DNA of 64,000 bases from Deltaproteobacteria bacterium. Its GTDB lineage: Bacteria; Desulfobacterota; Deferrimicrobia; Deferrimicrobiales; Deferrimicrobiaceae. Where the stretch lies: contig CP070783.1 in assembly GCA_020346465.1 (NCBI GenBank), forward strand, positions 1,969,402-2,033,401, in the 5' to 3' direction. Shown piece after piece: positions 17,171 to 54,041 of this stretch (position 1 is its first letter; every line of letters begins with the position of its first letter). The notes under the pieces are model-generated. The model was not told where the DNA came from, did no database searches, and worked only from the letters and a program-made list of their open reading frames with translations. The translations under genes were made by a program, and so were the position numbers.

Positions 17171-17332
17171 GACGTTGATTTCTCCCGTCGGGAATGAATG
17201 CGTCAGATGAAAACAGTATACGATACTCCTCTTCCCCCGGGAAATGCAACGGGTTACCCTCTCGGCTTCCATCCGTTTGCATTGGCCGGGTTGCCCTGCT
17301 AAGATACGGCGTTGCACATATGTCCCAAATAG

Positions 17333-29056: not shown

Positions 29057-30061
29057 TCATCTCCCCACGGTCAGCACGCCCGTTCCCTGGAGCTTGTCGG
29101 CTTTCAGCAGCTGGAGCGCCCGGTTGGCCTCTTCGAGCGGGAACAGGGCGATCTCCGGGCGGAGGGGGATCTCCGCCGCCTCCCGGAGCAGCTCCTCCCC
29201 GTCCTGCCGCGTGTTGGCCGTGACGCTCCGGACGTTCTTCTCGTAGAAGAGGCACTCCTCGTACCGCATCGACGGGATGTCGCTCATGTGGATGCCGGCG
29301 AGCGACAGGGTTCCCCCCTTTTTCAGCTTCCTCAGCGCCTTGGGGACCAGTTCCCCCGCCGGGGCGAAGAGGATCGCCGAGTCGGCGGGCGCCGGCATCT
29401 CCTCGGGATTCTCGCCCGCCCAGGAAGCACCCATCCGTTTTGCGAGTTCCCGGTGCTTCTCGCTGCGGGTGCAGACGAGGACCTCGCACCCCCGGTGCAG
29501 GGCGATCTGGATCACGATGTGGGCGGACGACCCGAAGCCGTAGATCGCCAGCGTTCCCCCCCGGGGGAGGTCGGCCCTGCGCAGCGCGCGGAACCCGATG
29601 ATCCCCGCGCACAGAAGCGGGGCGGCCTCGGCGTCCCGAAAGGCGGAGGGAAGAGGATAGGCGAACGCCTCCGGAACGACCGCGTACTCGGCGAAGCCGC
29701 CGTCGCGGTGATACCCCGTGAACACCGGCCGGTCGCACAGGTTTTCCCTGCCCGCCGCGCAGAACGCGCATTCCCCGCAGGTCCGCGCAAGCCACGCGAT
29801 GCCCACCCGGGCCCCGCGCGGGAACCGGGACGCCCCGGCCCCGGCGGCATCCACCGTTCCCACCGCCTGGTGCCCCGGAATCAGCGGCATACGGCGGACC
29901 GGCAGGTCCCCTTCGATGACGTGAAGATCCGTCCGGCAGATCGCGCAGGCGGAAACCTTCACCCGGATCTCTCCGGGGCCGGGAGCCGGGTCCGGGAGGT
30001 CCGTCAGGAGGAGGGGGGAGGTTTCGACCGGCCCCCTCTCCGGAAGCAGCATCGCTCTCAT
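29057..30061 (-). CDS. zinc-dependent alcohol dehydrogenase
   Basis: Catalytic Zn ligands CAICRTDLHV and structural Zn CxxCxxC (CGECAFCAAGRENLC), Rossmann GFGSSAH. Confidence 0.8.
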   Translation of the reverse strand: MRAMLLPERGPVETSPLLLTDLPDPAPGPGEIRVKVSACAICRTDLHVIEGDLPVRRMPLIPGHQAVGTVDAAGAGASRFPRGARVGIAWLARTCGECAFCAAGRENLCDRPVFTGYHRDGGFAEYAVVPEAFAYPLPSAFRDAEAAPLLCAGIIGFRALRRADLPRGGTLAIYGFGSSAHIVIQIALHRGCEVLVCTRSEKHRELAKRMGASWAGENPEEMPAPADSAILFAPAGELVPKALRKLKKGGTLSLAGIHMSDIPSMRYEECLFYEKNVRSVTANTRQDGEELLREAAEIPLRPEIALFPLEEANRALQLLKADKLQGTGVLTVGR

Positions 30062-30717
30062 TCCCGGAAGTCCGCGGGATTGAGGATCCGGTACCCCGCC
30101 TTCTGGATGGCCTTCCGGATCGGTTCCACGTGGAGGGTCGCGATCCGGAAGAAGACGGCCCGGGTGCCCGGCTCGGTGTGGCCGGTCGTCAGGACGCTCG
30201 TGACGTTCACGTGGAAGGATTTGATGATGGTCATGACCTCGGCCAGGGAGCCCGGGACGTCGGGGACCACGACTTCCAGACGGCTGCTGATCTCGCCGAT
30301 CCCCAGCGCCTCGATGAACGCCTTGAGGACGTCCGTCCTCGTGATGATCCCGGCCACGGTTCCCTCGTCGTCTACAACCGGGAGGGCGTTGACCCGGAAA
30401 TCGTGCAGGAGGACGATCGCATCCTCGAGGGAGTCGTTGACCGTTGCGGTGACCACCTTCCGGGTCATGACCTTCTCCACGGTGGTGCTTGCCAGCATCT
30501 CCTCCATCTCCTTCTCCGAGGAGCCGGGAAGGAGCCCCACGGGAAGGGTCGCCTCCCGGATGTCCCTGTCCGACAGGATGCCGACGAGCTTGTTCCCCTC
30601 GCCGGTGACCGGGAGCTGGCGCACGTTTTGCCCGCGCATCAGGCGGCGCGCCTCCTGGAGGGAGGCGGAGGGGGAAATCGTTGCGACGGCCCGCTGCATT
30701 CTTCGGGTGATGAACAT
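30058..30717 (-). CDS. CBS-pair plus ACT domain protein (AcuB-like)
   Basis: Two CBS motifs (VRQLPVTGEGNKLVGILSDRDI; ALPVVDDEGTVAGIITRTDV) followed by an ACT-like C-terminal domain; start overlaps the ADH gene. Confidence 0.7.
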   Translation of the reverse strand: MFITRRMQRAVATISPSASLQEARRLMRGQNVRQLPVTGEGNKLVGILSDRDIREATLPVGLLPGSSEKEMEEMLASTTVEKVMTRKVVTATVNDSLEDAIVLLHDFRVNALPVVDDEGTVAGIITRTDVLKAFIEALGIGEISSRLEVVVPDVPGSLAEVMTIIKSFHVNVTSVLTTGHTEPGTRAVFFRIATLHVEPIRKAIQKAGYRILNPADFRE

Positions 30718-33679: not shown

Positions 33680-34600
33680 TCAGGGGATGACGAGCAGCAG
33701 CTCGGTCTCCCGGTCCGTGCTTCCGGCGCTGGCCGACACCCGATCCCGGCTCACCGAGTGCTCCTTCGTCAGCAGGGCCAGGATCTCGTCGGTCTTCGAC
33801 TTCCCCTTTGCCGTGACGAGGATCGCCGCCGCGGGAAATTCCGACGCCGCTTTCCCCATCTCCCCGATCACTTTCTTTCCGGCATCCGTCAGGGTCGATT
33901 TCCCTTTCGAGAAGAGAACCGTGTCGGGCACGCGGACGCGCATGGCGGGGCCGACCGGCGACGCCGCGATCTCGGGGGAGATTCCGGAGAACGTTTCCGC
34001 GAGCTCCGCGAACCGGAGGTCCCTGCGTCTTCCCTCCAGGAGGCGATCCTCGCGGATGCGCTCGACGCGGCCGAGCAGGATGTCCCGCTCCCGCCGGAGG
34101 GATTCCATGTCGGGGGTTTCCGCAACCCGCTCTTCCAGCCCGGAGATGGCCGCCTCCTGGTCGGCGACGCTCTTCCTGAGAATTTCCCTTTCCCGATCGC
34201 ATGCCTGCGCCAGTTCGCTCAGCTCCTGGATCCTTTTGCCGGTCGCCTTCTCCTTTTCCAGGAGTTCCGAGATCAGCTCTTCCCGGGTGATCCGGGTACC
34301 CTCGAATTTTCTGCCGATCGAGGCGAGATCCTCCTTGGCCTTCCGGAGCTCCTTTTCCTGCTCCCCGGCCCGTGCGGAAAGGGCCGCGTTCGCCTCCGTC
34401 TCGTCGGCAAGCTGTTTCTGGGTCGCCGTATATTTCGCCTCGAGGATGGCGTGCTCCTTGTTGGTCACCGCCAGGGCATCCCGGAGCGAGTCGGCTTCTT
34501 TCGTCTTTGCGTCGTATTGGGAAGCGGTGACGAGGCATCCTCCCGTTCCCAGGGTGATCGCCAGAACGGGGACGACCAGCCAAAATCCCTTTGTCCGCAA
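33680..34600 (-). CDS. coiled-coil lipoprotein with OmpA-like C-terminal domain
   Basis: TTG start gives the signal MRTKGFWLVVPVLAITLGTGGC; about 200 aa of heptad-rich coiled coil; C-terminal TVLFSKGKSTLTDAGKKVIGEM... resembles OmpA/MotB peptidoglycan-binding domains. The alternative ATG at 34702 would give an implausibly long n-region. Confidence 0.55.
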   Translation of the reverse strand: MRTKGFWLVVPVLAITLGTGGCLVTASQYDAKTKEADSLRDALAVTNKEHAILEAKYTATQKQLADETEANAALSARAGEQEKELRKAKEDLASIGRKFEGTRITREELISELLEKEKATGKRIQELSELAQACDREREILRKSVADQEAAISGLEERVAETPDMESLRRERDILLGRVERIREDRLLEGRRRDLRFAELAETFSGISPEIAASPVGPAMRVRVPDTVLFSKGKSTLTDAGKKVIGEMGKAASEFPAAAILVTAKGKSKTDEILALLTKEHSVSRDRVSASAGSTDRETELLLVIP

Positions 34601-34727
34601 CCGTTTCCTCCGGATCTTTCCGTCTGTCCCAGGTATGAAACATTTTACTTTCCCACCCCTTTTTAATAAAGTTCTAAATAAACCGGTCTCCCCGAACATC
34701 CCGGGCGGTTGCGGAAAGGCGGGCGTC

Positions 34728-36398
34728 GTGCGTGGTTCCCAGACCGAACTCCTCGACACGTTCCTGAAGCTCGGGTTCCTCTCTCCCGAGGCGCTGAAGG
34801 CCCTGAAGGCGCGAGGGGCCGGGAAGGGAATCCCGGTGATGGAGGCGGCGATCGTCTCCGGCATCCTCCACGCCGACGCGAAAGGATGGGTCCTGGCGAA
34901 TACGTTGGGGATTCCGTTCCTCGAGGTGGATCCGGACGCCGTGCCGCTTTCCTTCTCCGAGATCCTCCCCGAGACGGTGGCGCGCGAGAACCTGGCGGTC
35001 CCCGTCTCCCGGGAGGAGGGGCGTCTTACCCTCGCGGTCGTCGACCCGTTCCGGAACGACGCGTTCTCCCGGATCGAGGAAATGACCGGCCTGGGCGTCA
35101 CGCTCGTCGTCTGTCCCGTCCGCACGATCACGCGCATCCTCGAACGCTTCTACCCCGATCCCCTTTCGCTTTCCCCCGGGGAGGCGATGGCCGGCGCGAT
35201 CGGCCCTGACGAGGCACGGGAGTGGATTGCCCGCGGCCGTGGCCGGAGGCTGGCGGAAAACGTTCTTCTCCACGCGGCGAAGGCCGGAATCGGCACCGTC
35301 CGGATCTACCCCTCCGGCCGGAGCGTGGCGGTCTCCGGGGACTCGGGGAGAGGGAAATCGCTCCTGCTCTCCTTCCCCCTCCGTTTCCGGGGGGCCCTCG
35401 TGGACGCCTTCGCGGAGCTGGCGGGACTTCCCGCGGGCCGCGCACCGGTGGAGGAGTCCATCGTCCAGCTGGAGACGGCGACCGGCATCCGCGCCTTCCG
35501 GATCAGCATTCTCCGCGGCCTCTCCGGAGAGGAGGCGGTCGTGAAGGTTCTCCCGGACCTGAAGTCGGTCATCGCCCTGGACTCGATCGGGTTCCACCCG
35601 GACCAGACGGAAGTCACCCGGCGTCTCCTTTCGTCGGCGGACGGCCTCTGCCTCGTCTCCTCCCCGGGGGAGGGGGGCGTGGCGACGACGATCTTCGCGA
35701 TGCTCCGGGAGGCGCACTTGCCGGGCAGGCGCGTCGTCACCGTCGAGGAGACCCACCGGTTCCGCAACGACGGGTACATCCAGCTGGAGCGCCGGGAGGT
35801 CGAGAATCGGTTCGGGGGGACATGGGGGCGGCTTGCCGAGACGCTCGAGCCGGATGCGCTGGCGATCGAGCGCGTGGCTGGCCGGGAAGAGCTTCTCGAT
35901 CTGGTCCACATCGCAAGGAGAGGGATCCCCGTGTTCTGCGGGATGCAGGGAATCGACCTCCGCCGGACGCTTTTGACCCTGTTCTCCCTGGAGGTCGACC
36001 CGTTCCTTCTCGCGCGGGTCGTCCGGCTTGTCATGCACCAGCGGCTCGTCGATCTTCTCTGTTCCGATTGCCGGAGGGCGGTTCCGGCCGTGCCGCCCCT
36101 GCGGCTTGCGGGGGAGCGCCACCGGGAACGTCTGGAAACGCTGGTTCGGGAGGTCTCCTTCCACGTCCCCGGCGGGTGCCCCCGGTGCCAGGGCGCGGGG
36201 TATTCGGGGAAAATGGCCCTGTTCGATCTGCTCCCCTTCACCCCCGGCGTCCAGAACACCTTGCTGTCCGGCGCCTCCCTCGAGGAGAGGATGGAGCGGA
36301 TCCTCGGGGAGAATCTCCTGTCCGCCTTCCCCTCGGCGGAAGACCTTCTGCGGAGGGGGATGGTGACGTTCGACGATGTTCTGCCGTTTTTCCAATAG
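34728..36398 (+). CDS. GspE/PilB-like protein with degenerate ATPase core (pseudo-ATPase) and intact N1 domain and Zn finger
   Basis: N-terminal T2SSE_N-like region (LGFLSPEALKALKA...GIPFLEVDP); Walker A position reads SPGEGGVATT instead of GPTGSGKTT (Lys lost); Asp box VEETHR; Walker B DALAIERVAG; His box GMQGID; tetracysteine CSDC...CPRC...GYSGKMALFDLL is retained. GTG 34728 with GGAAAGG RBS preferred over ATG 34635, which lies inside the AT-rich island. Confidence 0.75.
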   Translation: MRGSQTELLDTFLKLGFLSPEALKALKARGAGKGIPVMEAAIVSGILHADAKGWVLANTLGIPFLEVDPDAVPLSFSEILPETVARENLAVPVSREEGRLTLAVVDPFRNDAFSRIEEMTGLGVTLVVCPVRTITRILERFYPDPLSLSPGEAMAGAIGPDEAREWIARGRGRRLAENVLLHAAKAGIGTVRIYPSGRSVAVSGDSGRGKSLLLSFPLRFRGALVDAFAELAGLPAGRAPVEESIVQLETATGIRAFRISILRGLSGEEAVVKVLPDLKSVIALDSIGFHPDQTEVTRRLLSSADGLCLVSSPGEGGVATTIFAMLREAHLPGRRVVTVEETHRFRNDGYIQLERREVENRFGGTWGRLAETLEPDALAIERVAGREELLDLVHIARRGIPVFCGMQGIDLRRTLLTLFSLEVDPFLLARVVRLVMHQRLVDLLCSDCRRAVPAVPPLRLAGERHRERLETLVREVSFHVPGGCPRCQGAGYSGKMALFDLLPFTPGVQNTLLSGASLEERMERILGENLLSAFPSAEDLLRRGMVTFDDVLPFFQ

Positions 36399-36428: not shown

Positions 36429-38228
36429 GTGGCAATGAAAGAACGAACGCTGAACCGGATGTTCCTGAACCGGATCGAGGAGGGGGGCGACTCCGTCCGG
36501 TACCTCGTCCCGCGCGACGGGAAGTGGGATCCGATGACGTACCGGGAGGTCGGAAGCGCTGTCCGGGAGATGGCGAACGGGATGATGGCGCTCGGCCTCT
36601 CCCGGGGGGACAAGGTGGCGATCCTCTCCTCCACGCGCGTGGAGTGGTGCCTGGCCGACATCGCCATCATCCTCGGAGGATTCATCCCGGTTCCGATCTA
36701 CCCCTCCAACCTCCCCGATCAGGTCGAATACATCCTGGCCCACTCGCAGGCCCGCGTCGTCTTCGTCGAGGACGAGATCCAGTGGAACAAGGTCGCCGGG
36801 GTCTGGAAGAACCTCCCCGACCTGACCGCTGCGGTCCTGTTCTCCGGCCCGCCGGAAGGCAAGGAGAGGACGGTCGATCTTCCCGCTCTTCGCTCGCGGG
36901 GGATCGCACACGAGGCAGCCGACCCGGAGGCGCTTTCCCGCAGGACGGAGGAGATTCGGCCCGAGGACGACCTGACACTCATCTACACCTCCGGGACCAC
37001 CGGGCCCCCGAAGGGGGTGGTGACCCGGCACGGCAACTACGTCTTCATCGTCACCTCCGCTCTCCAGGCCTGCACGGTTATGCGGGGCGAAACCTTTCTC
37101 CAGTTCCTTCCCCTGGCGCATTCGCTGGGCAGGCTCGAGCATTTCCTCACGTTCGACGCCATGGCGGTCTCCGCCTTCGCCCGGGACATCCAGACGGTAG
37201 GCGAAGACCTGGCGCTGGTGCGTCCCGAGATCATGGTGAGCGTCCCCCGGCTCTACGAGAAGTTCTATGCCCGGGTGCTCGCCAAGGTGGAGGAGGACGG
37301 GGGATCGAAGAAGGCGATCTTCGACTGGGCGATCGGCGTCGGACGCGAGGTCTCCCGCCGCCTTCAGCGGAAGGAGAAGGCCGGCGGCCTCCTCGCCCTC
37401 AAGGCCGCGATCGCGGAGCGGCTCGTATTCCGGAAAATCCGGGAACGGATGGGGGGAAGGTTCCGGTTTGCCATCTCCGGGGGCGCGCCCCTCTCCTCGG
37501 AGATCGCGGAGTTCCTCCATGCACTGGGCGTCCTGATCCTCGAGGGGTACGGGCTGACGGAAGACTCCACCGTGACCGCGGTCAACCGCTACGACGACTA
37601 CAAGTTCGGGACGGTCGGAAAGGCCCTGCCGGGGACCGAGATCCGGATCGCCCCGGACGGGGAGATTCTCGTCCGCGGGCCCCACGTGTTCAAGGAGTAC
37701 TTCCGGGAGCCGGAGGCGACGCGGGAGGCGGTCGACGCGGAAGGGTGGCTGCACACCGGCGATATCGGGGAAATGGACTCTGCCGGGTTCCTCCGCATCA
37801 CGGACCGGAAGAAAGACATCATCGTGACGTCGGGGGGGAAGAACATCGCTCCCCAGAACGTGGAGAACCTGCTGAAGAACGACCGGTTCGTGAGCCAGGC
37901 GTTCGTCTACGGCGACCGGCGGAAGTACCTCACCGCTCTCCTGACCCTGGCGCCCGAGGAGATCGTGAAGTGGGCGGAGCAGAACGGCATCCCGGACAGG
38001 GATCCGGCCCTTCTCGCCGTCAACCCCGCGGTGGAGTCGATGATGCGCGCCCGCGTCGAGGAGATCAACCGCCAGCTGGCCTCCTTCGAGCAGGTGAAGA
38101 AGTTCGTCCTGCTCGGCACCGACTTCTCCCAGGAGACGGGGGAGCTCACCCCCACCCTCAAGGTGAAGCGCAAGGTGGTCATCAAGAAATACGGGCACCT
38201 GCTCGACTCCCTCTATGGGAAAGAATGA
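36429..38228 (+). CDS. long-chain fatty-acid--CoA ligase (AMP-dependent synthetase)
   Basis: AMP-binding motif IYTSGTTGPPKGV, GYGLTE, and the TGDIGEMD...DRKKD motif. Confidence 0.85.
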   Translation: MAMKERTLNRMFLNRIEEGGDSVRYLVPRDGKWDPMTYREVGSAVREMANGMMALGLSRGDKVAILSSTRVEWCLADIAIILGGFIPVPIYPSNLPDQVEYILAHSQARVVFVEDEIQWNKVAGVWKNLPDLTAAVLFSGPPEGKERTVDLPALRSRGIAHEAADPEALSRRTEEIRPEDDLTLIYTSGTTGPPKGVVTRHGNYVFIVTSALQACTVMRGETFLQFLPLAHSLGRLEHFLTFDAMAVSAFARDIQTVGEDLALVRPEIMVSVPRLYEKFYARVLAKVEEDGGSKKAIFDWAIGVGREVSRRLQRKEKAGGLLALKAAIAERLVFRKIRERMGGRFRFAISGGAPLSSEIAEFLHALGVLILEGYGLTEDSTVTAVNRYDDYKFGTVGKALPGTEIRIAPDGEILVRGPHVFKEYFREPEATREAVDAEGWLHTGDIGEMDSAGFLRITDRKKDIIVTSGGKNIAPQNVENLLKNDRFVSQAFVYGDRRKYLTALLTLAPEEIVKWAEQNGIPDRDPALLAVNPAVESMMRARVEEINRQLASFEQVKKFVLLGTDFSQETGELTPTLKVKRKVVIKKYGHLLDSLYGKE

Positions 38229-39022
38229 CGGTTCCGTTGCCCACCTCGGTTTACGAAATCAACAGCATGCCGGAACGGGAGAGGGAATCGCTCCTCTCCG
38301 TTCTCATCCCGCGGCGCTTCCTGGAGATGTTTGCGATCGACCCGGAGACGTTCCGGAACGACGAAGGAGTCCGGTGCGTCCGGTTCGTCTGCCCCGAGAA
38401 GATGCCTTTTTTCCAGGTCGAGCTGCGCCGCGATCCGGGCGACCGGGACGCGGCGTATTTCCTCGACGTCTCCTCCACGGCGTTCGGACAGATGGAGATC
38501 TCCTTCGTCATCGTGAACGACCCCGACGGCGACCGGTTCGACATCGACGTGGATGAGCACGGGCAGGACACCTATTTCGGGATGGCGCGCCGGAACATCG
38601 CCGAGGAGATCCGGGCGATGAAGGCGGGGCTGGCGCCCGGGCAGGTCCGGCGCGGCATGAAGGCGATGAAGGAGATCGTCGCGGGCTGGGAGGCGTTCTT
38701 CGGGCGCCTCGGGCACCGCTTCTTCTTCCTGGAGCCGCTGACGTACAACAGCGCGGTCCTGTACGAGCGATCCGGGTTCCAGTACCTGCACGGAGGCGAG
38801 GAGATGCGGGAGATCGACCGGGGGTTCCGCCCGGGCGGGGCCCTCCTTCCCAGGCTCGACGGAAGCACGCCGTTCCGGATGCCCGGGCAGGAGAAGACGG
38901 TGAGGGGGAGGAGCTGGGCGATCCACGACGGGATCCTGGACAGGCCGTGGGAGAGCCCGAAGATGGTCAAGACGATCGGGGTCCACGCGGGGGTGTATAC
39001 TTTCACGGGGGAGGGGTATTGA
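38225..39022 (+). CDS. hypothetical protein (possible GNAT-like fold), translationally coupled to the acyl-CoA ligase
   Basis: ATG overlaps the ligase stop (ATGA); 265 aa; C-terminal HRFFFLEPLTYNSAVLYERSGFQY loosely resembles acyltransferase folds; no confident family. Confidence 0.5.
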   Translation: MTVPLPTSVYEINSMPERERESLLSVLIPRRFLEMFAIDPETFRNDEGVRCVRFVCPEKMPFFQVELRRDPGDRDAAYFLDVSSTAFGQMEISFVIVNDPDGDRFDIDVDEHGQDTYFGMARRNIAEEIRAMKAGLAPGQVRRGMKAMKEIVAGWEAFFGRLGHRFFFLEPLTYNSAVLYERSGFQYLHGGEEMREIDRGFRPGGALLPRLDGSTPFRMPGQEKTVRGRSWAIHDGILDRPWESPKMVKTIGVHAGVYTFTGEGY

Positions 39023-40836
39023 TGGTCCGGTTCGCGGCAGTCGTCCTGGCGCTTCTCCTGGCGGCCTCCGGCTCCCGGGGGGACGAGGGGGAGCGCCCCA
39101 GGATCTTCCTCGAGAAGAAGATCTTCTCGGAGACCTCGACGGGGCGGAAGAGCTTCTACGAGGTGCACACGGTGTCGAAGGGGGAGAGCCTCTGGAAGAT
39201 CCTGAGCAGGAAGTCCGCGCTCTTCCCGGAGGATTATCCCTCCCTGCTCCGGGAGTTCCGCCGGGCCAACCCGGACGTGAAGGATCCGGGAAAACTCTTT
39301 CCCGGCAGGAAGATCCTGGTCCCGACCGGCATCGGCATGAAAACAACCCGGCTGGTGGAGACGGGCAAGGCGGTCGCCTACCGGATCCGGAAGGGGGAGA
39401 CCCTGTCGGGGATCCTGACCTCCCGGGGAGTCGGGCGCGAGGATCTTGCCCGCTACATGGACGCCGCAAAGGAGCTGAACGACTCCGTTCGCGACGTGCA
39501 CAGGATCTACGCCGGGAAGACCATCCTCGTTCCCACCGGGACGTACTTCGAAAAGGCCGGGGAGATGCCGGTGCCGGAGCCTTCCGCGGTTGCGCTGACG
39601 CGGGATGTACCGCCGCAGCCCGAAGGGGAAGCTCTCCCGGCGGCGAAACCGGAGTCCCAGGTGGCGGTTTCCGCCGCGCCGCCGCCGGAATCGGCCGCCG
39701 TGTTGACGGGACAGAAGACGGAAGAGCCGGCGCTTCCTCCGCTTCCCCGGCCGAAGTCCGCCTACCGCGGCCTGCTGTCGGACCTGGTCGGCGGACTGGG
39801 GGAGAAGTGGGTGGACCGCGGGACGCTCTACCTTCCGATCCCCTCGGGCGGAGAGGTCGTCCTCAATCTCGAGGAGTACCCCGTCGTGCGGTTCTCCGGG
39901 GGGATCCATGCGCTGATCGACTTCCAGGGCGCCCTGCCGGAAGAAGTGCGCCGGGTGATCACGGAGACATGGAAGAATTACCGCGTGGTCCCGATGGACG
40001 GAGCGCAAGGCGCGCTGGACATGATCGGCCGGCTTCTCGGCGCCTCCGGGTACTATTCCGTCAAGGAAGGGTTTGCCCACCCGCCGGTCATCGGCGAGGA
40101 ACTGTCGGTGACCCTCCCCGCCCGGTGGGTCGTCCTCCGGACGAGCCAGAGTCTGCTCAACGGGGAGATCATCCTCGTCAAGGAGGTTCCGGAGAAGCCC
40201 GGGCGGGACCTCTCCGCGGTCCTGCGATTCGCCGAACGGGTCGGGATGCGGGTGCTGCCGTTTGCCCATGACCCCGCCGCCTACGAAGGGTTTCTCGTTG
40301 GGCTCGACCCCGTGGAGGGCGGGGGGGAGGAGGGGACCGGAACCGTCCTGCCGCAGGGAGGCCTCGAGGCGCTGGATTTCTCCCTCGCGCTGCTGGGCAT
40401 TCCGACGCTGGACGAGAAGGGGATCCAGATCGGCGGCGGCGGGGGATCCTTTCTCCTGACGGTCCAGCCGGAGAGGATGTTCGAGGCGGGGGGGAAGCGG
40501 TTCGTGGTGGACACCGGGGGGATGTCCCCCGCAGTCCGGGACATCATCCGGACCTCGGGGTACCGCGTGTTCCGCCTGGACAAGGGCGAGTCCGGACGGT
40601 CGATTTTCGAGAGAGTCCTGGCCGATTCCGGCATCCCCTTCGAGGCGAGGAAGGGGTACCTCCTCGCCGGGGGGAAGGAGGAGGGCTTCGAGGTGCGCGC
40701 GACAGGGACGTTTCTCACCTCCCGCGACTGGCTCGAGGCCAGGAAGGTCCGGGAGGCGGTTCTCGTCCGGGAGAAGGTGCACACCGCCACGAGGGCCCTG
40801 ATGAGAGAAATCGGTGTGGAAATCGTGGGGCGGTAG
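39022..40836 (+). CDS. secreted protein with two N-terminal LysM domains and a large uncharacterised C-terminal domain
   Basis: Signal peptide MVRFAAVVLALLLAASGS; LysM repeats (YEVHTVSKGESLWKIL...ILVP; AYRIRKGETLSGIL...ILVP); ATG overlaps the upstream stop (TGATG). Confidence 0.7.
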   Translation: MVRFAAVVLALLLAASGSRGDEGERPRIFLEKKIFSETSTGRKSFYEVHTVSKGESLWKILSRKSALFPEDYPSLLREFRRANPDVKDPGKLFPGRKILVPTGIGMKTTRLVETGKAVAYRIRKGETLSGILTSRGVGREDLARYMDAAKELNDSVRDVHRIYAGKTILVPTGTYFEKAGEMPVPEPSAVALTRDVPPQPEGEALPAAKPESQVAVSAAPPPESAAVLTGQKTEEPALPPLPRPKSAYRGLLSDLVGGLGEKWVDRGTLYLPIPSGGEVVLNLEEYPVVRFSGGIHALIDFQGALPEEVRRVITETWKNYRVVPMDGAQGALDMIGRLLGASGYYSVKEGFAHPPVIGEELSVTLPARWVVLRTSQSLLNGEIILVKEVPEKPGRDLSAVLRFAERVGMRVLPFAHDPAAYEGFLVGLDPVEGGGEEGTGTVLPQGGLEALDFSLALLGIPTLDEKGIQIGGGGGSFLLTVQPERMFEAGGKRFVVDTGGMSPAVRDIIRTSGYRVFRLDKGESGRSIFERVLADSGIPFEARKGYLLAGGKEEGFEVRATGTFLTSRDWLEARKVREAVLVREKVHTATRALMREIGVEIVGR

Positions 40837-40854: not shown

Positions 40855-41478
40855 GTGAACGTTCTTCGGGTGCCGGGGGCCGCGGGAATGGTCGGATCGA
40901 ATGAGGAGAACCCGGGGAGGCGGACCCCCGAGAAAACGTCCCTCCTGGGCCTGGTCAGTTTCCAGCCGCGCCTGGCAATCGTCCTGTTCTTCCTGACGGT
41001 TACGGTCGTCGTCGTGGGAGTCCGGATATCGCGGGATTCGGGGATCCGGCGGGTGGACACCCTGGTGCGGGATGCCCAGCGGGCGTTCGCGGTCCCCCGG
41101 AAGGGGGACGCGCGGCCCCTGGATCCGGCGGACGTGGAGGCGCGCATCCGGGAGTGGACGGGCGCCAAAGTCATCCTCCCCCGCGATGAGGAGTCCTTCG
41201 CGTACACCGGGGTTTCCCGGGAGAAGATCGGACGGCAGGTGGCGGCGGTGGTCCGCCTCTCCTTCTCGGGGGATCCGTACCTCCTCCTCGTCGTGCGGAA
41301 AGAGATGATCGGGAGGAGGGGGTCCCAGGGGGCCCTGTTTTCCCGGTCGGGATTCCTCTCCGGGGAAGTGGAGGGAAAGGCGTACGTGTTCTGGGAGCGC
41401 GAGGGGGTCTCGTACCTGGTCGTGACGAATGCGGAGCTGGAGCGGGCATTTGATCTTGTCCGGCGGTACTTCACCTGA
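40855..41478 (+). CDS. hypothetical single-pass membrane protein (anti-sigma-factor-like topology)
   Basis: One TM helix (LAIVLFFLTVTVVVVGV) followed by a roughly 140-aa extracytoplasmic domain; no confident family. Confidence 0.45.
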   Translation: MNVLRVPGAAGMVGSNEENPGRRTPEKTSLLGLVSFQPRLAIVLFFLTVTVVVVGVRISRDSGIRRVDTLVRDAQRAFAVPRKGDARPLDPADVEARIREWTGAKVILPRDEESFAYTGVSREKIGRQVAAVVRLSFSGDPYLLLVVRKEMIGRRGSQGALFSRSGFLSGEVEGKAYVFWEREGVSYLVVTNAELERAFDLVRRYFT

Positions 41479-41486: not shown

Positions 41487-42143
41487 GTGACGGGAGGGCC
41501 AGCGATGATTGTCGCCAAGAGGATGATGCGGAACCCGGTGGTCGTGGACGAGAACGACTCGATGAAGAAAGCGATGGACATCCTGAAGGAGCGGGAGATC
41601 CGCCACCTTCCGGTGCTGCGGGGAGGGGACAAGCTCGTGGGGATCGTGACCGAGGAGGACATCAAGCAGGCATCCCCCTCTCCCGCCACTGCCCTCGAGA
41701 TCCGCGAGATCTTCTATCTGCTCGACAAGATCCGGGTGAAGCAGATCATGACGCGAAGGGTGTACACGGTCTCCCCGACAGCCCCCATCGAGGAGGCCGC
41801 CGCGGTCATGCGGGAAAAGAAGATCGGGTGCCTCCCCGTCGTGGAGAAGGGGAGGCTCGTCGGCATCCTGACCGAGACCGACATCCTCGATGCGTTTCTC
41901 GAATCGATGGGGGTCCACGGGCCCGGGTACCGGGTCGAACTGGGCGTGCCGGACAGTCCCGAGGTGCTCCTCGAGGTGGTCCGGTTCTTCCATGGTCTCG
42001 ACGCGAGCATCGTCTCCCTGGCCACCGTTTCCCACGAAGACCCGAAGAGGAAGGTCCTCGTCCTGCGGGTCGAGACGAACAGCTACAAGGTCCTCAAGGC
42101 AGCCATCAAGAAGAGCGGCTACGAACTTCTTACGGCCGATTGA
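41487..42143 (+). CDS. CBS-pair plus ACT domain protein (paralog of 30058..30717)
   Basis: Two CBS motifs (IRHLPVLRGGDKLVGIVTEEDI; CLPVVEKGRLVGILTETDIL) and a C-terminal ACT-like domain. Confidence 0.7.
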   Translation: MTGGPAMIVAKRMMRNPVVVDENDSMKKAMDILKEREIRHLPVLRGGDKLVGIVTEEDIKQASPSPATALEIREIFYLLDKIRVKQIMTRRVYTVSPTAPIEEAAAVMREKKIGCLPVVEKGRLVGILTETDILDAFLESMGVHGPGYRVELGVPDSPEVLLEVVRFFHGLDASIVSLATVSHEDPKRKVLVLRVETNSYKVLKAAIKKSGYELLTAD

Positions 42144-48501: not shown

Positions 48502-48576
48502 TGGTGGGCGCTACAGGATTTGAACCTGTGACTTCCACCGTGTGAAGGTGGCACTCTACCGCTGAGTTAAGCGCCC
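48502..48576 (-). tRNA. tRNA-Val (anticodon CAC)
   Basis: Reverse complement GGGCGCTTAACTCAGCGGTAGAGTGCCACCTTCACACGGTGG...GGTTCAAATCC...AGCGCCCACCA has a 7-bp acceptor, anticodon loop UUCACAC and the T-loop; the 48300..48554 track ORF is this tRNA read as protein. Confidence 0.85.
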
Positions 48577-48915: not shown

Positions 48916-49011
48916 GGAAGCGGATGGGGCGCTGGTGGCCCCCCCGGACTTCAAATCCGGTCGGGAGGCAGCAATGTCTCCGGTGGGTTCGATTCCCTCA
49001 CGCTTCCGCCA
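48916..49011 (+). tRNA. selC: tRNA-Sec (selC), anticodon UCA
   Basis: 96-nt tRNA: 5' GGAAGCGG ... 3' CGCTTCC-G-CCA, long acceptor (7-8 bp), anticodon arm CCGGA-CUUCAAA-UCCGG (U33, UCA, A37), long stem-loop variable arm, T-loop GGTTCGATTCC, discriminator G. Start and end residues are like E. coli selC (GGAAG...CTTCCGCCA). Confidence 0.7.
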
Positions 49012-50574: not shown

Positions 50575-52212
50575 ATGATCCGGGAGGCGATCGACGGGAT
50601 CTCCGCGCCGGACGGGAGGGGGCGGGTCGTCCGGGCCGTCTCCTGGATGGTCCTGTTCGCCTTCCTTCACGGGGGGTTCCGGTATTTCGGCCGGAGGGGG
50701 ATGCTCGTCACGGCCCGCCGGGTGGAGATGCGCCTCCGCCGGGATCTCTTCGCCCACGTGATCCGCCTTCCCCTCTCCTTCTTCGGCAGGACGCCCACCG
50801 GGGACGTCATGTCCCGGATGACGAACGACATCTCGGCGGTCTGGCTGCTGCTCGGCCCCGGCGTGCTCACCCTCGTCGGAACGGCGATCACCTACATCCT
50901 CGGCCTCCTCTTCATGGCCCGGATCAGCGTCGCGCTGACGCTCGTCGCTCTCGCGGTGGCGCCCGTGATCGTGGTCGCGTCGCGGGAGTACGGGAAGGCG
51001 TTCCACCGCACCCACCGGAAGGCCCAGGAGTCCCTCGCCGCGATGAACGCCGCGATCCAGGAGAACGTCGCCGGCATCCGGCTGGTCAAGGCCTACGGGC
51101 TCGAGGCGCAGGAGGAGGGAAGGTTCCGCGCCGCCAGCCGGGACTACTACCGGCAGAACGTCTCCGTCGCGAGGACCTCCGCGGCCTTCCACGGGGCGAT
51201 CGGCCTCCTGGCGGGGCTGGGAGTGACGCTCGTCCTCCTGTTGGGGGGGTGGCTCGTGATCCGGGGGAGGCTGACGCTGGGAGGCTTCGTCGCCTTCAAC
51301 GCCTATCTCGCGATGCTCTCCTTCCCGACGATGGCGCTCGGCTGGGTGATCAACCTCGTCCAGCGGGGCGGCAGCGCGATGGGGCGGATCAACGAGTTCC
51401 TGGAGACCCCCGCCGAGCCGCGGGAGCCGCTCCTGGTGCCGCCGCGGAAGGTCCCGGACGCCCCGTTCCTCGAGGTCCGGGATCTCTCGTTCGGCTACGG
51501 AGGGGGGGACCGGGGCGAGGCGCTCCGGGGGGTCTCCTTCTCCCTCCGGAAGGGGGAGATCGCGGGCCTCGTGGGGCAGACGGGGAGCGGGAAGAGCACC
51601 CTCTTCTCCCTGCTGCTGCGGCTGTATCCGGTCCCGCCGGGGACGGTCTTCCTCGAGGGGAGGGATGCCGGCGGACTCCCGCTGGAGGAGGTCCGGCGCA
51701 CGGTGAGCCTCGTGGGCCAGGACCCGTTCCTCTTCTCCGACACGATCCTGGCGAACGTCTGTTTCGGGCGGGACCTCCCGGACGAGCAGGAAGCCCGCCG
51801 CGCCGTCTCCATGGCCCGGTTCCTGGCGGAGGTCGAGGAGATGCCGGACGGCATGCGCACGGTGATCGGGGAGAGGGGGGTCTCGCTGTCCGGCGGGCAG
51901 AAGCAGAGGGCGACGATCGCCCGGGCTCTCTGCGCGGGAGGGGAGCTTCTCCTTCTCGACGACGCCCTCTCCGCGGTCGACTCGGAGACGGAGCAGGAGA
52001 TCTTCCGGCAGATCCTCTCCGCCCGCGGCGGCAGGACGGTCCTGTTCAGCACGCACCGGATGGCGTCCCTGTCCCGGTGCGACAGGATCCTGGTCCTGGT
52101 GGAAGGAAGGATCGTGGAGGAGGGGACGCACGACGAGCTGCTCTCCCGCAGGGGGGCGTATTTCGACCTCTATTCCCGGCAGATGATCGCCCGGGAGCTG
52201 GAGGCGACGTGA
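50575..52212 (+). CDS. ABC exporter, fused permease/ATPase subunit 1 of a heterodimeric pair (N-terminus probably extends upstream to about 50464)
   Basis: TMD plus NBD: Walker A GQTGSGKST, signature LSGGQKQR, Walker B LLLLDDALSAVD, H-loop. The first ATG (50575) lies after TM1; the upstream in-frame sequence VIRDLLSLRPYLGRHRSAYFWCAAVLLVSSLFGLLVPW encodes the canonical N-terminus and TM1 but has no ATG/GTG/TTG. Confidence 0.8.
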   Translation: MIREAIDGISAPDGRGRVVRAVSWMVLFAFLHGGFRYFGRRGMLVTARRVEMRLRRDLFAHVIRLPLSFFGRTPTGDVMSRMTNDISAVWLLLGPGVLTLVGTAITYILGLLFMARISVALTLVALAVAPVIVVASREYGKAFHRTHRKAQESLAAMNAAIQENVAGIRLVKAYGLEAQEEGRFRAASRDYYRQNVSVARTSAAFHGAIGLLAGLGVTLVLLLGGWLVIRGRLTLGGFVAFNAYLAMLSFPTMALGWVINLVQRGGSAMGRINEFLETPAEPREPLLVPPRKVPDAPFLEVRDLSFGYGGGDRGEALRGVSFSLRKGEIAGLVGQTGSGKSTLFSLLLRLYPVPPGTVFLEGRDAGGLPLEEVRRTVSLVGQDPFLFSDTILANVCFGRDLPDEQEARRAVSMARFLAEVEEMPDGMRTVIGERGVSLSGGQKQRATIARALCAGGELLLLDDALSAVDSETEQEIFRQILSARGGRTVLFSTHRMASLSRCDRILVLVEGRIVEEGTHDELLSRRGAYFDLYSRQMIARELEAT

Positions 52213-54041
52213 GCAACGGGGCGGAGTTCTACTTCACCGAGGACCGGGTGGAGACCCGGGGGATGGACGTGAGGCTCCTGCGCCGCCTCCTTTCGTACCT
52301 GTCCCCCCACAGGGGGCTCCTCGCGGCGGCCCTCGGGGCCCTGGTGCTCGGCACGGCCTGCCAGCTGGCCGGGCCCTACATCATCAAGCTGGTCATCGAC
52401 CGGAACATCACCCCCCGCGTTCTCGACGGGCTCGCCGGGCGGGTCGCCCTCTTCCTCGCGGCGCTCGCCGGCGGGATGGGGTTCCTCTACCTCCAGATGT
52501 TCGCGGTGTCCATCATCGGGCAGAGGGTCATCCTCCAGATCCGCGCCGAGATGTTCGGCAGGCTCCAGCGCCTCCCGGTCTCCTTCTTCGACCGCACCCC
52601 CACGGGCCGGGTGATGACACGCCTCACGTCGGACGTGGAGGCGCTCCAGGAGCTGATCTCCTCGGGGCTGGTCTCCACCGTCGGTTCCGTGACGATCCTG
52701 GTCGGGATCGCCGCGGTCCTGTTCTGGATGGACGCCCGGCTGACCATCGTCACCTTCGCCGTCCTCCCGTTCCTCGTCCTGTTCGTCGAGCTGCTGAAGA
52801 AGTTCATCCGGGAGGCGAACCGGGAGATGAGACGGAAGCTCGCCCGGCTCAACGCGTTTCTCCAGGAGCACGTGACCGGCGTGGACGTCGTGAAGGCCTT
52901 CGTCCAGGAGGAGAAATCGGGCCGGGAATTCGACGTCCACAACGACGCATACTCCGCGGAGAGCATCCGCCTGACGAACTTCTACTCCGTGTACTTCCCC
53001 GGCGTGGAGCTGTTCGCGTCCGTCGCGGTGGGCCTCCTTCTCTGGCAGGGGGGGGTCCGGGTGATCGCCGGGGCCGTCACCTTCGGGACCCTGGTGGCCT
53101 TCCTCGAGTACGCCCAGAAGTTCTTCGCCCCCATCAAGGACGTCAGCGACAAGTACAACATCCTCCAGTCGGCCCTCGCCTCGAGCGAACGGATCTTCCA
53201 GATCCTCGACACGGAGGTCTCCCCGGAATACCGGCCGCTTCCCTCCGGCGGGAAGAGCCCTCCCCGCCCGGCGGAGGAGCGGGGCAGGGAACGCGCGGCG
53301 CGGCTTCCCCCGCCTGCGATCGAGTTCCGGGACGTCTGGTTCTCCTACCCGAAGGGGGACGGGGGACAGGGGGAGACGGTCCTCCGGGGCGTCTCCTTCA
53401 CGCTCCACGAGGGCGAGACGGGGGCGATCGTGGGCGCCACCGGCGCGGGGAAGACGACGGTCCTCAACCTGCTCTGCCGCTTCTACGAGATCTCCCGGGG
53501 CGAGATCCGGCTCTTCGGAAGGGACGTGCGGGAGATCCCCCGGGAGGAGCTGCGCGGGATGATCTCGCTCGTCCTCCAGGACCCGTTTCTCTTCTCCGGC
53601 ACGATCCGGGAGAACGTGGAGGCGGGCGGGGCGGAGCCCGGCCGGGCCCTGGAGGTGTCAGGCGTGTCGCGGTTCGCCGGGGCCTGGGAGAGCGGCCTTG
53701 CCACGCAGGTGGGGGAGCGGGGCGGGAGGCTTTCCGTCGGCCAGCGGCAGCTCGTGTCGTTCGCGCGGGCGCTGGCCCGGGACCCGGAGGTCCTCGTCCT
53801 GGACGAGGCGACCTCCAGCGTGGACCCGGTCACCGAGCACGAGGTCCAGGCGGCCCTCGGGAAGATCCTGACCGGAAGAACGTCCCTGGTGGTCGCCCAC
53901 CGCCTCTCCACCATCCTCTCGGCCGACCGGATCCTCGTGATGCACCGGGGGAAGGTCCGGGAGACCGGGACCCACCGGGAGCTCCTGGCGGCCCGCGGGA
54001 TCTACCACAGGCTCTACACCCTCCAGTTCGAAACGCCGTAA
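52209..54041 (+). CDS. ABC exporter, fused permease/ATPase subunit 2 of a heterodimeric pair
   Basis: Walker A GATGAGKTT, signature LSVGQRQL, Walker B VLVLDEATSSVD; GTG overlaps the subunit-1 stop (GTGA). Confidence 0.8.
   Translation: MSNGAEFYFTEDRVETRGMDVRLLRRLLSYLSPHRGLLAAALGALVLGTACQLAGPYIIKLVIDRNITPRVLDGLAGRVALFLAALAGGMGFLYLQMFAVSIIGQRVILQIRAEMFGRLQRLPVSFFDRTPTGRVMTRLTSDVEALQELISSGLVSTVGSVTILVGIAAVLFWMDARLTIVTFAVLPFLVLFVELLKKFIREANREMRRKLARLNAFLQEHVTGVDVVKAFVQEEKSGREFDVHNDAYSAESIRLTNFYSVYFPGVELFASVAVGLLLWQGGVRVIAGAVTFGTLVAFLEYAQKFFAPIKDVSDKYNILQSALASSERIFQILDTEVSPEYRPLPSGGKSPPRPAEERGRERAARLPPPAIEFRDVWFSYPKGDGGQGETVLRGVSFTLHEGETGAIVGATGAGKTTVLNLLCRFYEISRGEIRLFGRDVREIPREELRGMISLVLQDPFLFSGTIRENVEAGGAEPGRALEVSGVSRFAGAWESGLATQVGERGGRLSVGQRQLVSFARALARDPEVLVLDEATSSVDPVTEHEVQAALGKILTGRTSLVVAHRLSTILSADRILVMHRGKVRETGTHRELLAARGIYHRLYTLQFETP

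What the first reader, a model, noticed from the sequence alone, without database searches (positions are those of the whole stretch)
34728..36398. GspE/PilB-family secretion ATPase homolog that is catalytically dead, outside any T2SS/T4P locus
The ORF aligns end to end with type II secretion / type IV pilus ATPases. The N-terminal T2SSE_N-like domain is intact and carries LG..L..E.L..AL repeats reminiscent of c-di-GMP-binding MshEN domains. The tetracysteine zinc motif and its flanking GYxG.....F.LL are also intact. Every ATPase element is degenerate: Walker A GPTGSGKT has become SPGEGGVA (Lys lost), the Asp box reads VEETHR, Walker B reads DALAIERVAG and the His box reads GMQGID. No GspF/PilC, secretin or pilin genes are nearby; the neighbours are an OmpA-like coiled-coil lipoprotein on the other strand and an acyl-CoA ligase / LysM operon downstream. 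This looks like a pseudo-ATPase retained as a sensor, adaptor or scaffold.
Basis: partly seen in the sequence, partly recalled or inferred. Interest (0 to 1): 0.75.

Follow-up and report, generated by a model that had tools for sequence, protein, structure and literature searches.

The report
Dead PilB-like ATPase conserved across MBNT15
This gene encodes a full-length relative of the motor that builds bacterial type IV pili, but it has lost every ATP-handling residue and has still been kept by selection across a whole uncultured phylum, so it is a repurposed non-enzyme whose job is unknown.

Summary
Window 34728-36398 (+) encodes a 556-aa protein with a MshEN/GSPII N-domain and a T2SSE core. 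Its predicted fold matches GspE and PilB. HMMER alignments to solved PilB/PilF show that Walker A, the Asp box, Walker B, the His box and the N2 arginine motif are all replaced. The tetracysteine site is intact. It is not a pseudogene: orthologues of about 556 aa occur in 45 GTDB species of MBNT15/Deferrimicrobiota, none has the P-loop lysine, and dN/dS is 0.22-0.29, like the neighbouring genes. A sister clade at 27-31% identity shares the Lys-to-Val loss and the same locus. The c-di-GMP-sensor idea is not supported: 0 of 124 family members match even the relaxed MshEN binding motif. The gene is the first cistron behind a promoter-like element that is conserved in every lineage examined. Downstream lie an acyl-CoA ligase, a GNAT-like protein and a LysM protein. 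One lineage keeps the promoter and the operon but lacks this gene, so it is accessory to that operon. No pilus or secretion genes occur in the 64 kb. The most likely reading is a nucleotide-independent scaffold or regulator. I rate it a new variant of a known kind, of moderate interest.

The parts
34728..36398 (+). pseudo-PilB ORF (556 aa, GTG start, stop included)
   Evidence: Translation. Pfam MshEN + T2SSE. Orthologues of the same length.
34728..35165 (+). N1 domain (GSPII/MshEN fold): four-helix bundle (residues about 5-60) plus alpha/beta subdomain. The c-di-GMP motifs are degenerate.
   Evidence: Pfam MshEN E 2e-17. AF2 secondary structure. Motif test 0/124.
35436..35465 (+). Relic of the N2 'R-PQDGR' arginine motif (GRAPVEESIV)
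   Evidence: Alignment with canonical PilB-like proteins. Coordinates.
35661..35690 (+). Relic Walker A: SPGEGGVATT (Lys replaced by Val)
   Evidence: HMMER alignment to PilB/PilF. Residue at the Lys position in the family: V 67, I 17, G 16, A 7, M 2, R 1, never K.
35739..35762 (+). Relic Asp box: TVEETHRF (canonical T-EDPVE-)
35847..35882 (+). Relic Walker B: EPDALAIERVAG (canonical DPDIIMVGEIRD). An invariant Glu sits at the Gly position.
35934..35957 (+). Relic His box: FCGMQGID (canonical LSTLHTND)
36060..36188 (+). Tetracysteine (zinc) module: CSDC ... CPRC
   Evidence: Invariant in A1. Present in 118/118 relatives.
34641..34672 (+). Conserved bipartite promoter-like element (-35-like TTTACT, 17 nt, -10-like TAAAGT) between the lipoprotein gene and the pseudo-PilB gene
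   Evidence: Unique in the window. Exact 32-mer in 14 loci. ATTTTAC...TTTWATAAAGT found upstream of the gene in every lineage examined, including the sister clades, and upstream of the ligase gene in L052, which lacks pseudo-PilB.
34713..34719 (+). Shine-Dalgarno-like GGAAAGG, 8 nt before the GTG start
   Evidence: Sequence. The AAGGCGG core is invariant in the alignment of upstream regions; flanking positions vary in L012, L013 and L015.
33680..34600 (-). Divergently transcribed coiled-coil lipoprotein (TTG start, lipobox LGTGGC). It is kept next to the gene in the deep clades but absent in about half of the MBNT15 loci.
36429..38228 (+). Downstream cistron: FadD11-like long-chain acyl-CoA ligase, 30 nt after the pseudo-PilB stop
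   Evidence: Pfam AMP-binding. NCBIfam FadD11 E 4e-118, below the curated cut-off. Synteny.
38225..39022 (+). Downstream cistron: 265-aa protein of a large family without a Pfam model, GNAT-like fold. Its start overlaps the ligase stop (ATGA).
39022..40836 (+). Downstream cistron: secreted LysM-domain protein (604 aa)
40855..41478 (+). Downstream cistron: 207-aa protein with one hydrophobic segment read by eye as a transmembrane helix (bitopic membrane protein by inspection only), no family hit
41487..42143 (+). Downstream cistron: CBS-CBS-ACT protein

Best explanation
The gene encodes a non-catalytic paralogue of the type IVa pilus extension ATPase PilB, here called pseudo-PilB. It is specific to the uncultured phylum MBNT15/Deferrimicrobiota and its near relatives.

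Shown: it keeps the three-domain PilB/GspE fold, the zinc-binding tetracysteine module and the GSPII N-domain. It has lost every residue that binds or hydrolyses ATP, and it is maintained by purifying selection.

Inferred: it works without nucleotide turnover, as a protein-binding scaffold or regulator. It would use the surfaces that remain conserved: the alpha/beta half of N1, the CTD core around the former pocket, the zinc module and the C-terminal tail.

The most likely targets, by homology only, are partners that PilB/GspE normally contact (PilM/GspL-type, PilC-type, PilZ-type proteins, or PilB itself). The type IV pilus machinery is reported to be encoded elsewhere in MBNT15 genomes. The gene is transcribed as the first cistron of an operon (acyl-CoA ligase, GNAT-like protein, LysM protein, a putative single-pass membrane protein, CBS-ACT protein) from a deeply conserved promoter. 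This couples its level to that envelope/lipid module without making it an obligatory part of it.
For: Family and fold. Pfam MshEN + T2SSE. PDB sequence hits to PilF/PilB at E about 1e-33. AF2 model with pLDDT 79.7, whose best Foldseek hits are GspE 4pht, PilF 5oiu and PilB 5tsh at E 1e-27 to 1e-29. The best NCBIfam model is PilB rather than GspE.

Dead site. Walker A, Asp box, Walker B, His box and the N2 Arg motif are all replaced in un-shifted alignments. No member has Lys at the P-loop position.

Retained. 45 of 45 GTDB species loci carry the relic P-loop. Nearly all proteins are 556 aa. NG86 dN/dS is 0.22-0.29, against 0.13-0.53 for the neighbours. The relic Walker A and Asp-box segments are more conserved (0.85, 0.87) than the protein average of about 0.70. 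The tetracysteine is invariant.

Ancient loss. Sister clades at 27-31% identity (P0123, P0126, P0271) have the same Lys-to-Val change and the same locus.

Operon and promoter..

Dispensability. Locus L052 has the same promoter, lipoprotein gene and ligase operon but no pseudo-PilB.

T4P in the phylum. PMC9386147 reports a type IV pilus gene set in Ca. Deferrimicrobium borealis.

Precedent for ATP-independent signalling. A Walker A mutant of M. xanthus PilB still regulates EPS production (review PMC11656802).
Against: No direct evidence links it to pili. No T4P/T2SS gene lies within 64 kb, and I could not test co-occurrence with pilus genes across genomes. Partner identity, oligomeric state and nucleotide binding are inferred from sequence only. 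High conservation of the relic P-loop region could mean a new ligand is bound there, not just fold maintenance. The protein diverges about as fast as the envelope proteins of the operon and much faster than its cytoplasmic enzymes: 29% identity between clades, against 54-56% for the ligase. This would also fit a role tied to the envelope proteins.
Confidence: 0.6

Rival explanations
1. It is a structural or regulatory component of the system encoded by its own operon and neighbours, not of pili. That system comprises the coiled-coil lipoprotein, a tetraheme cytochrome c (in other lineages), the acyl-CoA ligase plus GNAT-like acyltransferase, the LysM protein and the putative single-pass membrane protein. 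On this view a motor fold has been exapted as the cytoplasmic scaffold of an envelope module.
For: The same locus is used in all clades down to 27% identity. It shares a conserved promoter with the operon. In the sister clades its stop overlaps, or lies 3-36 nt before, the start of a tetraheme cytochrome gene that is also present in 7 MBNT15 loci. Its evolutionary rate resembles that of the lipoprotein and the LysM protein.
Against: L052 keeps the promoter, lipoprotein gene and ligase operon without pseudo-PilB or the cytochrome. The lipoprotein gene is missing from about half of the MBNT15 loci, and the cytochrome from most of them, including this window. The whole 20-kb block of unrelated housekeeping genes is also syntenic, so adjacency alone is weak evidence.
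Confidence: 0.2
2. It is a c-di-GMP receptor: the MshEN N-domain senses the nucleotide and the dead ATPase body transmits the signal.
For: The Pfam MshEN domain is present. The 24+5+24 spacing of the helical bundle is preserved. MshEN domains are fused to many output domains (PMC5013675).
Against: 0 of 124 family members match the relaxed published motif, against 28 of 82 canonical relatives with at least one copy. The key Arg, Gly, Leu and Gln positions are replaced in both repeats. The bundle is the least conserved part of N1. Small deviations from the motif already abolish binding in PilF GSPII-A (PMC12002112).
Confidence: 0.07
3. It is still an ATPase or NTP-binding switch that uses non-canonical or relocated residues.
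For: The relic P-loop and Asp-box segments are the best conserved parts of the protein. An invariant Glu (E381) sits one position before the canonical Walker B Glu. The window protein has a GDSGRGKS string.
Against: All five nucleotide-contacting motifs are lost at once. The Lys position is V/I/G/A/M in all but one member (one Arg), and none has Lys. The GDSGRGKS string is in a predicted beta-hairpin of N2 and is not conserved even at 88% identity.
Confidence: 0.05
4. It is a decaying pseudogene or a mis-assembled or frameshifted pilB.
For: None beyond the degenerate motifs.
Against: Intact ORFs of the same length in 45 species and more than 120 protein clusters. dN/dS is about 0.25. The predicted fold is confident.
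Confidence: 0.01

Closest known systems
PilB / PilF, type IVa pilus extension ATPases (e.g. Geobacter metallireducens PilB 5TSH, Thermus thermophilus PilF 5OIU/6F8L)
   Same: Same three-domain architecture: GSPII/MshEN N1, N2, and a CTD with a tetracysteine zinc module. Alignable end to end at 21-24% identity. These are the best sequence and fold matches.
   Different: Walker A Lys, Asp box, Walker B Glu, His box and the N2 arginines are all replaced. It scores 122 bits against the 676-bit PilB equivalog cut-off. It is not next to pilC/pilM-Q/pilT.
GspE, type II secretion ATPase (Vibrio EpsE/GspE 1P9R, 4PHT)
   Same: Same core fold and zinc module. It is the top Foldseek hit.
   Different: The N-domain is of the PilB/MshE type. 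It scores 105 bits against the 630-bit GspE cut-off. No gsp genes are nearby.
MshE / MshEN c-di-GMP receptor domain (V. cholerae, PMC5013675)
   Same: Pfam MshEN fold with two helical hairpins in 24+5+24 register.
   Different: Both binding motifs are degenerate. The behaviour expected is that of the non-binding GSPII-A domain of PilF (PMC12002112).
Non-catalytic use of PilB in Myxococcus xanthus EPS regulation (summarised in PMC11656802)
   Same: A PilB that cannot bind or hydrolyse ATP (Walker A K327A) still has a signalling output. This shows the fold can act without catalysis.
   Different: There it is a mutant state of the active motor. Here the inactive state is fixed in a separate paralogue.
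Other degenerate PilB-like lineages in metagenomes (P0138, P0174, P0205, P0207, P0214/P0243/P0267)
   Same: Full-length MshEN+T2SSE proteins that lack a canonical Walker A, and usually Walker B and the His box.
   Different: These are independent lineages with other substitutions (for example GSGRTT, Lys to Arg). P0138 sits next to a 352-aa T2SSE-domain gene, presumably PilT-like. None is characterised as far as I could find.

Membership tests
Functional PilB/GspE-type secretion ATPase | Walker A GxxGxGK[ST] with the catalytic Lys at the P-loop | tested here: not met
   SPGEGGVA is aligned to GPTGSGKT. No family member has Lys there. The GDSGRGKS string at residues 204-211 is a non-conserved decoy in N2.
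Functional PilB/GspE-type secretion ATPase | Asp box (EDPxE) and atypical Walker B (hhhhGE) with the catalytic Glu | tested here: not met
   EETHR and ALAIER. The family consensus is TVEExHRFR and LMIEx.
Functional PilB/GspE-type secretion ATPase | His box (hhTLHTN) | tested here: not met
   CGMQGID. The family consensus is CGIRRFNF.
Functional PilB/GspE-type secretion ATPase | N2-domain arginines (R-PQDGR) that contact the nucleotide | tested here: not met
   APVEES is aligned to RLPQDG.
Functional PilB/GspE-type secretion ATPase | Tetracysteine zinc module in the CTD | tested here: met
   C445, C448, C484 and C487 are invariant; present in 118/118 relatives.
Functional PilB/GspE-type secretion ATPase | Score above the curated equivalog cut-off (NCBIfam TIGR02538 PilB, TIGR02533 GspE) | tested here: not met
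   122 bits against 675.65, and 104.7 bits against 630.25.
Functional PilB/GspE-type secretion ATPase | Encoded with platform, alignment, secretin or pilin genes | tested here: not met
   None in the 64-kb window or in the +/-10 kb flanks of 45 orthologous loci.
Functional PilB/GspE-type secretion ATPase | ATP hydrolysis and hexamer formation | not testable with these tools
   Needs purified protein.
T2SSE homology superfamily (Pfam PF00437) with MshEN/GSPII N-domain (PF05157) | Significant profile match above the gathering threshold, and matching fold | tested here: met
   T2SSE 80.9 bits (cut-off 24.9). MshEN 63.2 bits (cut-off 23.1). Foldseek E about 1e-29.
MshEN-type c-di-GMP receptor | Two tandem 24-residue motifs RLGxx(L/V/I)(L/V/I)xxG(L/V/I)(L/V/I)xxxxLxxxLxxQ separated by 5 residues | tested here: not met
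   Strict and relaxed regular expressions match 0 of 124 family members. The anchored comparison shows the Arg, Gly, Leu and Gln positions lost.
MshEN-type c-di-GMP receptor | Measured c-di-GMP binding | not testable with these tools
   Needs ITC or DRaCALA on residues 1-146.

The most novel reading that the evidence does not exclude
Pseudo-PilB is not a pilus regulator at all. It is the cytoplasmic scaffold of an undescribed envelope module of iron-reducing MBNT15 bacteria, made of the coiled-coil lipoprotein, a tetraheme cytochrome c, the LysM protein, the putative single-pass membrane protein and an acyl-CoA ligase/GNAT pair. That would be the first case of a type IV filament motor fold exapted as a non-motor part outside any type IV filament system. 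Its former nucleotide pocket, still the best conserved segment, would bind a new ligand or partner.
Probability: 0.1. Interest if true: 0.75.

Novelty: new variant of a known kind. Interest (0 to 1): 0.45.

Why it matters
PilB/GspE-family ATPases are treated as obligate motors, and automatic annotation calls this protein 'type IV pilus assembly protein PilB' or 'ATPase, T2SS/T4P/T4SS family'. Metabolic and motility reconstructions of MBNT15 genomes therefore over-count pilus motors. A paralogue that lost all catalytic residues at once, yet is conserved across a phylum, is a natural experiment. It shows which surfaces of the motor matter without ATP: the zinc module, the alpha/beta half of the GSPII domain and the CTD core. 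The survey also shows several other independent 'dead PilB' lineages in metagenomes, so non-catalytic members may be a recurrent and overlooked branch of this family. No mechanism can be derived here, and the organisms are uncultured, which limits immediate impact.

Tried and rejected
(1) Frameshift or pseudogene: rejected by ORF length conservation and dN/dS.

(2) Shifted hand alignment: rejected. HMMER and MAFFT alignments give the same motif correspondences.

(3) A hidden Walker A: the GDSGRGKS string at residues 204-211 was checked and rejected as a lineage-specific decoy in a beta-hairpin.

(4) c-di-GMP binding: the motif test was negative.

(5) A riboswitch or other known RNA in the leader: Rfam found nothing near the gene.

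(6) The sigma-70 and terminator consensus scan found nothing useful. The conserved promoter-like element was found only by comparative alignment.

(7) OmpA-like domain in the lipoprotein: not detectable with Pfam, NCBIfam or PDB sequence searches.

(8) Literature searches for a characterised catalytically dead PilB/GspE found none. Absence from this library is not proof of absence.

(10) A search of the AFDB fold library was not available.

(11) Contexts of other degenerate lineages were mostly on contigs too short to be informative.

(12) I could not test co-occurrence with canonical pilus genes genome-wide, because only +/-10 kb around each locus is accessible.
Full report
**1. What is in the sequence**

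The window has about 67% G+C. ORF 34728-36398 (+) starts with GTG, and a GGAAAGG lies 8 nt upstream. It encodes 556 aa. Pfam finds MshEN (residues 60-146, E 2e-17) and T2SSE (residues 245-551, E 1e-22).

phmmer against all PDB chains aligns residues 10-552 with T. thermophilus PilF and Geobacter PilB (E about 1e-33 to 1e-34), and the C-terminal two thirds with GspE/EpsE.

An AlphaFold2 model built on 24 family sequences has mean pLDDT 79.7. The secondary structure is as expected: a four-helix bundle plus an alpha/beta N1, a flexible linker at residues 144-155, then N2 and the CTD. Its best Foldseek matches in the PDB are GspE 4pht, PilF 5oiu and PilB 5tsh/5zfr (E 1e-27 to 1e-29).

**2. The catalytic site is gone**

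In the un-gapped HMMER alignments the substitutions are:

| Canonical motif | This protein |
|---|---|
| GPTGSGKT (Walker A) | SPGEGGVA |
| EDPVE (Asp box) | EETHR |
| DPDIIMIGEIRD (Walker B) | EPDALAIERVAG |
| TLHTND (His box) | GMQGID |

Two independent MAFFT alignments with about 90 canonical relatives give the same result. They also show that the N2 motif R-PQDGR has become APVEES.

One trap exists. The window protein contains GDSGRGKS (residues 204-211), which fits the Walker A regular expression. It lies in a predicted beta-hairpin of N2. It is already GDSGKGRA in the 88%-identical relative and is absent from the rest of the family. It is a decoy.

The tetracysteine site (C445, C448, C484, C487) is intact. 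The protein scores 122 bits against NCBIfam PilB (cut-off 676) and 105 bits against GspE (cut-off 630).

**3. It is a conserved gene family, not a relic**

A search of 5.8 billion proteins returned more than 120 clusters at 50-99% identity, almost all of 556 aa. Those with names come from Candidatus Deferrimicrobiaceae or 'Deltaproteobacteria' MAGs.

A scan of one genome per GTDB species found 47 loci. 45 are full or near-full orthologues, and all 45 carry the relic P-loop S[ST]PxxxGxxTT. Across 110 family members the residue at the lysine position is V 67, I 17, G 16, A 7, M 2 and R 1, never K. The tetracysteine is present in 118 of 118.

Nei-Gojobori dN/dS against five orthologues is 0.22-0.29, within the range of the neighbouring genes (0.13-0.53).

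The relic Walker A and Asp-box segments (mean column conservation 0.85 and 0.87) are more conserved than the protein as a whole (about 0.70). The first 45 residues, which form the helical bundle that binds c-di-GMP in MshE, are the least conserved part of N1 (0.59-0.62).

An exhaustive HMMER search of 1.84 billion cluster representatives shows a sharp drop after this family. One clade at 27-31% identity follows (P0123, P0126, later P0271), and then generic PilB/GspE at 170 bits or less. That clade has the same Lys-to-Val change (ASPDYSGVTTT) and equally degenerate Asp, Walker B and His boxes. Catalysis was therefore lost before these lineages split.

The lineage is candidate phylum MBNT15/Deferrimicrobiota. 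These are small genomes, predicted to be iron reducers, without flagella but with a type IV pilus gene set (PMC9386147). The closest genome locus (96% protein identity) is from MAG UBA11853.

**4. The c-di-GMP idea**

The published motif is two copies of RLGxx(L/V/I)(L/V/I)xxG(L/V/I)(L/V/I)xxxxLxxxLxxQ with a 5-residue spacer. A relaxed search form is also published (PMC5013675).

Anchored on the conserved LGIPF, the two repeats of the target are ELLDTFLKLGFLSPEALKALKARG and PVMEAAIVSGILHADAKGWVLANT. The 'RLG' Arg and Gly, one of the two Leu, and in repeat 1 the Gln are lost. Neither the strict nor the relaxed pattern matches any of the 124 family and sister-clade proteins. By contrast, 28 of 82 canonical relatives have at least one relaxed copy.

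Small deviations from the motif already abolish binding in the GSPII-A domain of PilF (PMC12002112). The fold is MshEN-like, but the canonical binding mode is not supported.

**5. Surroundings**

The window is a core chromosomal region. Genes identified include prs, L25, pth, S6, ssb, L9, dnaB, dus, a dynamin-like GTPase, an H+-pyrophosphatase, mreB, mreC, PBP2, rodA, thioredoxin, nifS/nifU, cysS, queH, purC and pyruvate carboxylase. No PilC/GspF, PilM-Q, secretin or PilT was found. No prepilin leader motif occurs in any frame.

Upstream and divergent lies a lipoprotein gene (33680-34600, TTG start, lipobox LGTGGC) with a long coiled coil. Its 'OmpA-like' nature could not be confirmed.

The genes downstream are tightly packed:
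- A FadD11-like acyl-CoA ligase (36429-38228) starts 30 nt after the stop.
- A secreted LysM protein (39022-40836).
- A 207-aa protein with one hydrophobic segment that I read by eye as a transmembrane helix (40855-41478).
- A CBS-ACT protein (41487-42143).

This order, and that of the genes further upstream (CBS-ACT, deacetylase, CorC, nitroreductase), is conserved in essentially all 45 loci. It is also conserved in the sister clades at 27-31% identity.

In the sister clades and in 7 MBNT15 loci a 255-263-aa tetraheme cytochrome c (four CxxCH) sits between pseudo-PilB and the ligase. In two sister-clade loci its start overlaps the pseudo-PilB stop. It is absent from this window.

**6. A conserved promoter, and a natural deletion**

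Aligning the intergenic region of 11 loci revealed an invariant block at window 34641-34672: CATTTTACTTTCCCnCCCCTTTTTWATAAAGT. It is unique in the window and exact in 14 loci.

Its two ends, ATTTTAC[T/A] and TTTWATAAAGT, are found at constant spacing upstream of the gene in every lineage examined, including the sister clades. The spacer sequence varies. This is the pattern of a promoter: -35-like TTTACT/TTTACA, 17 nt, -10-like TAAAGT. It scores 8 of 12 and therefore fell below the threshold of the consensus scanner.

Locus L052 is a related lineage; its ligase is 54% and its 265-aa protein 57% identical to those of the window. It has the lipoprotein gene, the same promoter element and the ligase operon. 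It has no pseudo-PilB and no cytochrome: the element sits directly upstream of the ligase start.

So the promoter belongs to the operon. Pseudo-PilB is an accessory first cistron, either inserted or lost as a unit.

Between clades pseudo-PilB is 29% identical. The ligase is 54-56% and the 265-aa protein 57-64%, while the LysM protein is 26-30% and the lipoprotein 25-36%. Pseudo-PilB thus evolves as fast as the envelope proteins of the locus.

**7. Interpretation**

*Shown:* a PilB-type protein that keeps the fold, the zinc site and the N-domain, has lost every ATP-contacting motif, and is under purifying selection across a phylum.

*Inferred:* it acts without nucleotide turnover, through protein contacts.

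I favour a scaffold or regulator that binds partners of the PilB/GspE type. My confidence is about 0.6 for the general statement and roughly 0.3 for pili specifically. Three points support this. The conserved surfaces are those used for partner binding in active homologues. The phylum is reported to encode pili. A PilB unable to use ATP is known to retain a signalling output in M. xanthus (PMC11656802).

The main rival (about 0.2) is a role within its own operon or envelope module. Locus conservation, the shared promoter, the cytochrome coupling and the similar evolutionary rate all favour it. The L052 deletion and the patchy presence of the lipoprotein and cytochrome genes weaken it.

c-di-GMP sensing (about 0.07), residual ATPase activity (about 0.05) and pseudogene status (about 0.01) are unlikely.

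**8. Novelty**

I found no description of a naturally dead PilB/GspE paralogue in the searchable literature. Databases label these proteins PilB, 'ATPase T2SS/T4P/T4SS family', TadA or hypothetical.

Among the 100 closest full-length representatives, several other independent lineages also lack a canonical Walker A: P0138, P0174, P0205, P0207 and P0214/P0243/P0267. One of them lies next to a 352-aa T2SSE-domain gene, presumably PilT-like. So this is a recurrent and unstudied phenomenon.

It is a new variant of a known kind. It is interesting to pilus and secretion specialists and useful for annotation. It has no derivable mechanism and occurs in uncultured organisms. I rate interest at 0.45.

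Noticed in passing
window 34641-34672 (and L052 7031-7070): A bipartite promoter-like element (ATTTTAC[T/A], variable spacer, TTTWATAAAGT) is conserved more deeply than the protein it precedes. In a lineage lacking pseudo-PilB the same element directly precedes the acyl-CoA ligase gene. It may also carry the divergent promoter of the lipoprotein gene or an operator.
   Followed up: partly
window 35337-35360: GDSGRGKS (residues 204-211) fits the Walker A pattern GxxGxGK[ST]. It lies in a predicted N2 beta-hairpin and is found only in this protein and its 99% relative. A motif scanner would wrongly report an intact P-loop.
   Followed up: yes
L013 11722-12513; L050 8034-8801; L051 3337-4104; L053 5925-6689; L055 9708-10457: A 249-263-aa tetraheme cytochrome c (four CxxCH, with a C-terminal domain predicted from sequence to be beta-rich) lies between pseudo-PilB and the ligase in 7 MBNT15 loci and in all sister-clade loci. 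In two loci (L050, L051) its start overlaps the pseudo-PilB stop. It is better conserved between clades (about 55%) than pseudo-PilB (about 29%) and is absent from this window.
   Followed up: partly
[not shown]
   Followed up: partly
window 10647-10709 (+): A fluoride riboswitch (Rfam RF01734, 52.9 bits) lies immediately upstream of a dynamin-family GTPase ORF (10704-12491), which is followed by an H+-pyrophosphatase (12644-15220). This is an unusual downstream gene for the riboswitch.
   Followed up: no
window 48916-49011 (+): A tRNA-Sec gene (anticodon TCA) lies next to tRNA-Val (48502-48576, minus strand). The organism therefore uses selenocysteine.
   Followed up: no
proteins P0138, P0174, P0205, P0207, P0214, P0243, P0267 (metagenomic); L054 576-2231: Several other independent full-length MshEN+T2SSE proteins lack a canonical Walker A and usually Walker B and the His box (for example GSGRTT). 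P0138 is followed by a 352-aa T2SSE-domain gene, presumably PilT-like. Dead PilB-like proteins seem recurrent.
   Followed up: partly
proteins P0132, P0134, P0135, P0136, P0139 and others: About 1000-aa proteins with two to four separate stretches matching the query, possibly tandem ATPase or multi-GSPII architectures.
   Followed up: no
window 30058-30717 (-) and 41487-42143 (+): Two paralogous CBS-CBS-ACT proteins (about 30-35% identical) bracket the locus. Both are conserved in all orthologous loci.
   Followed up: no
window 6976-9096 (-): A sigma-54-dependent response regulator (receiver + AAA+ + Fis HTH; NtrC/PilR type) lies 26 kb from the finding. No link to it was examined.
   Followed up: no
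window 15300-17300 and 52170-54000: Stretches with long ORFs that gave no Pfam hit. Their coding status was not resolved.
   Followed up: no
L008, L017, L048 (record titles): Orthologous loci are labelled Limnocylindria, Actinomycetota or Syntrophorhabdaceae in their MAG titles although gene content and synteny are MBNT15-like. This is probably mis-binning or mis-labelling.
   Followed up: no
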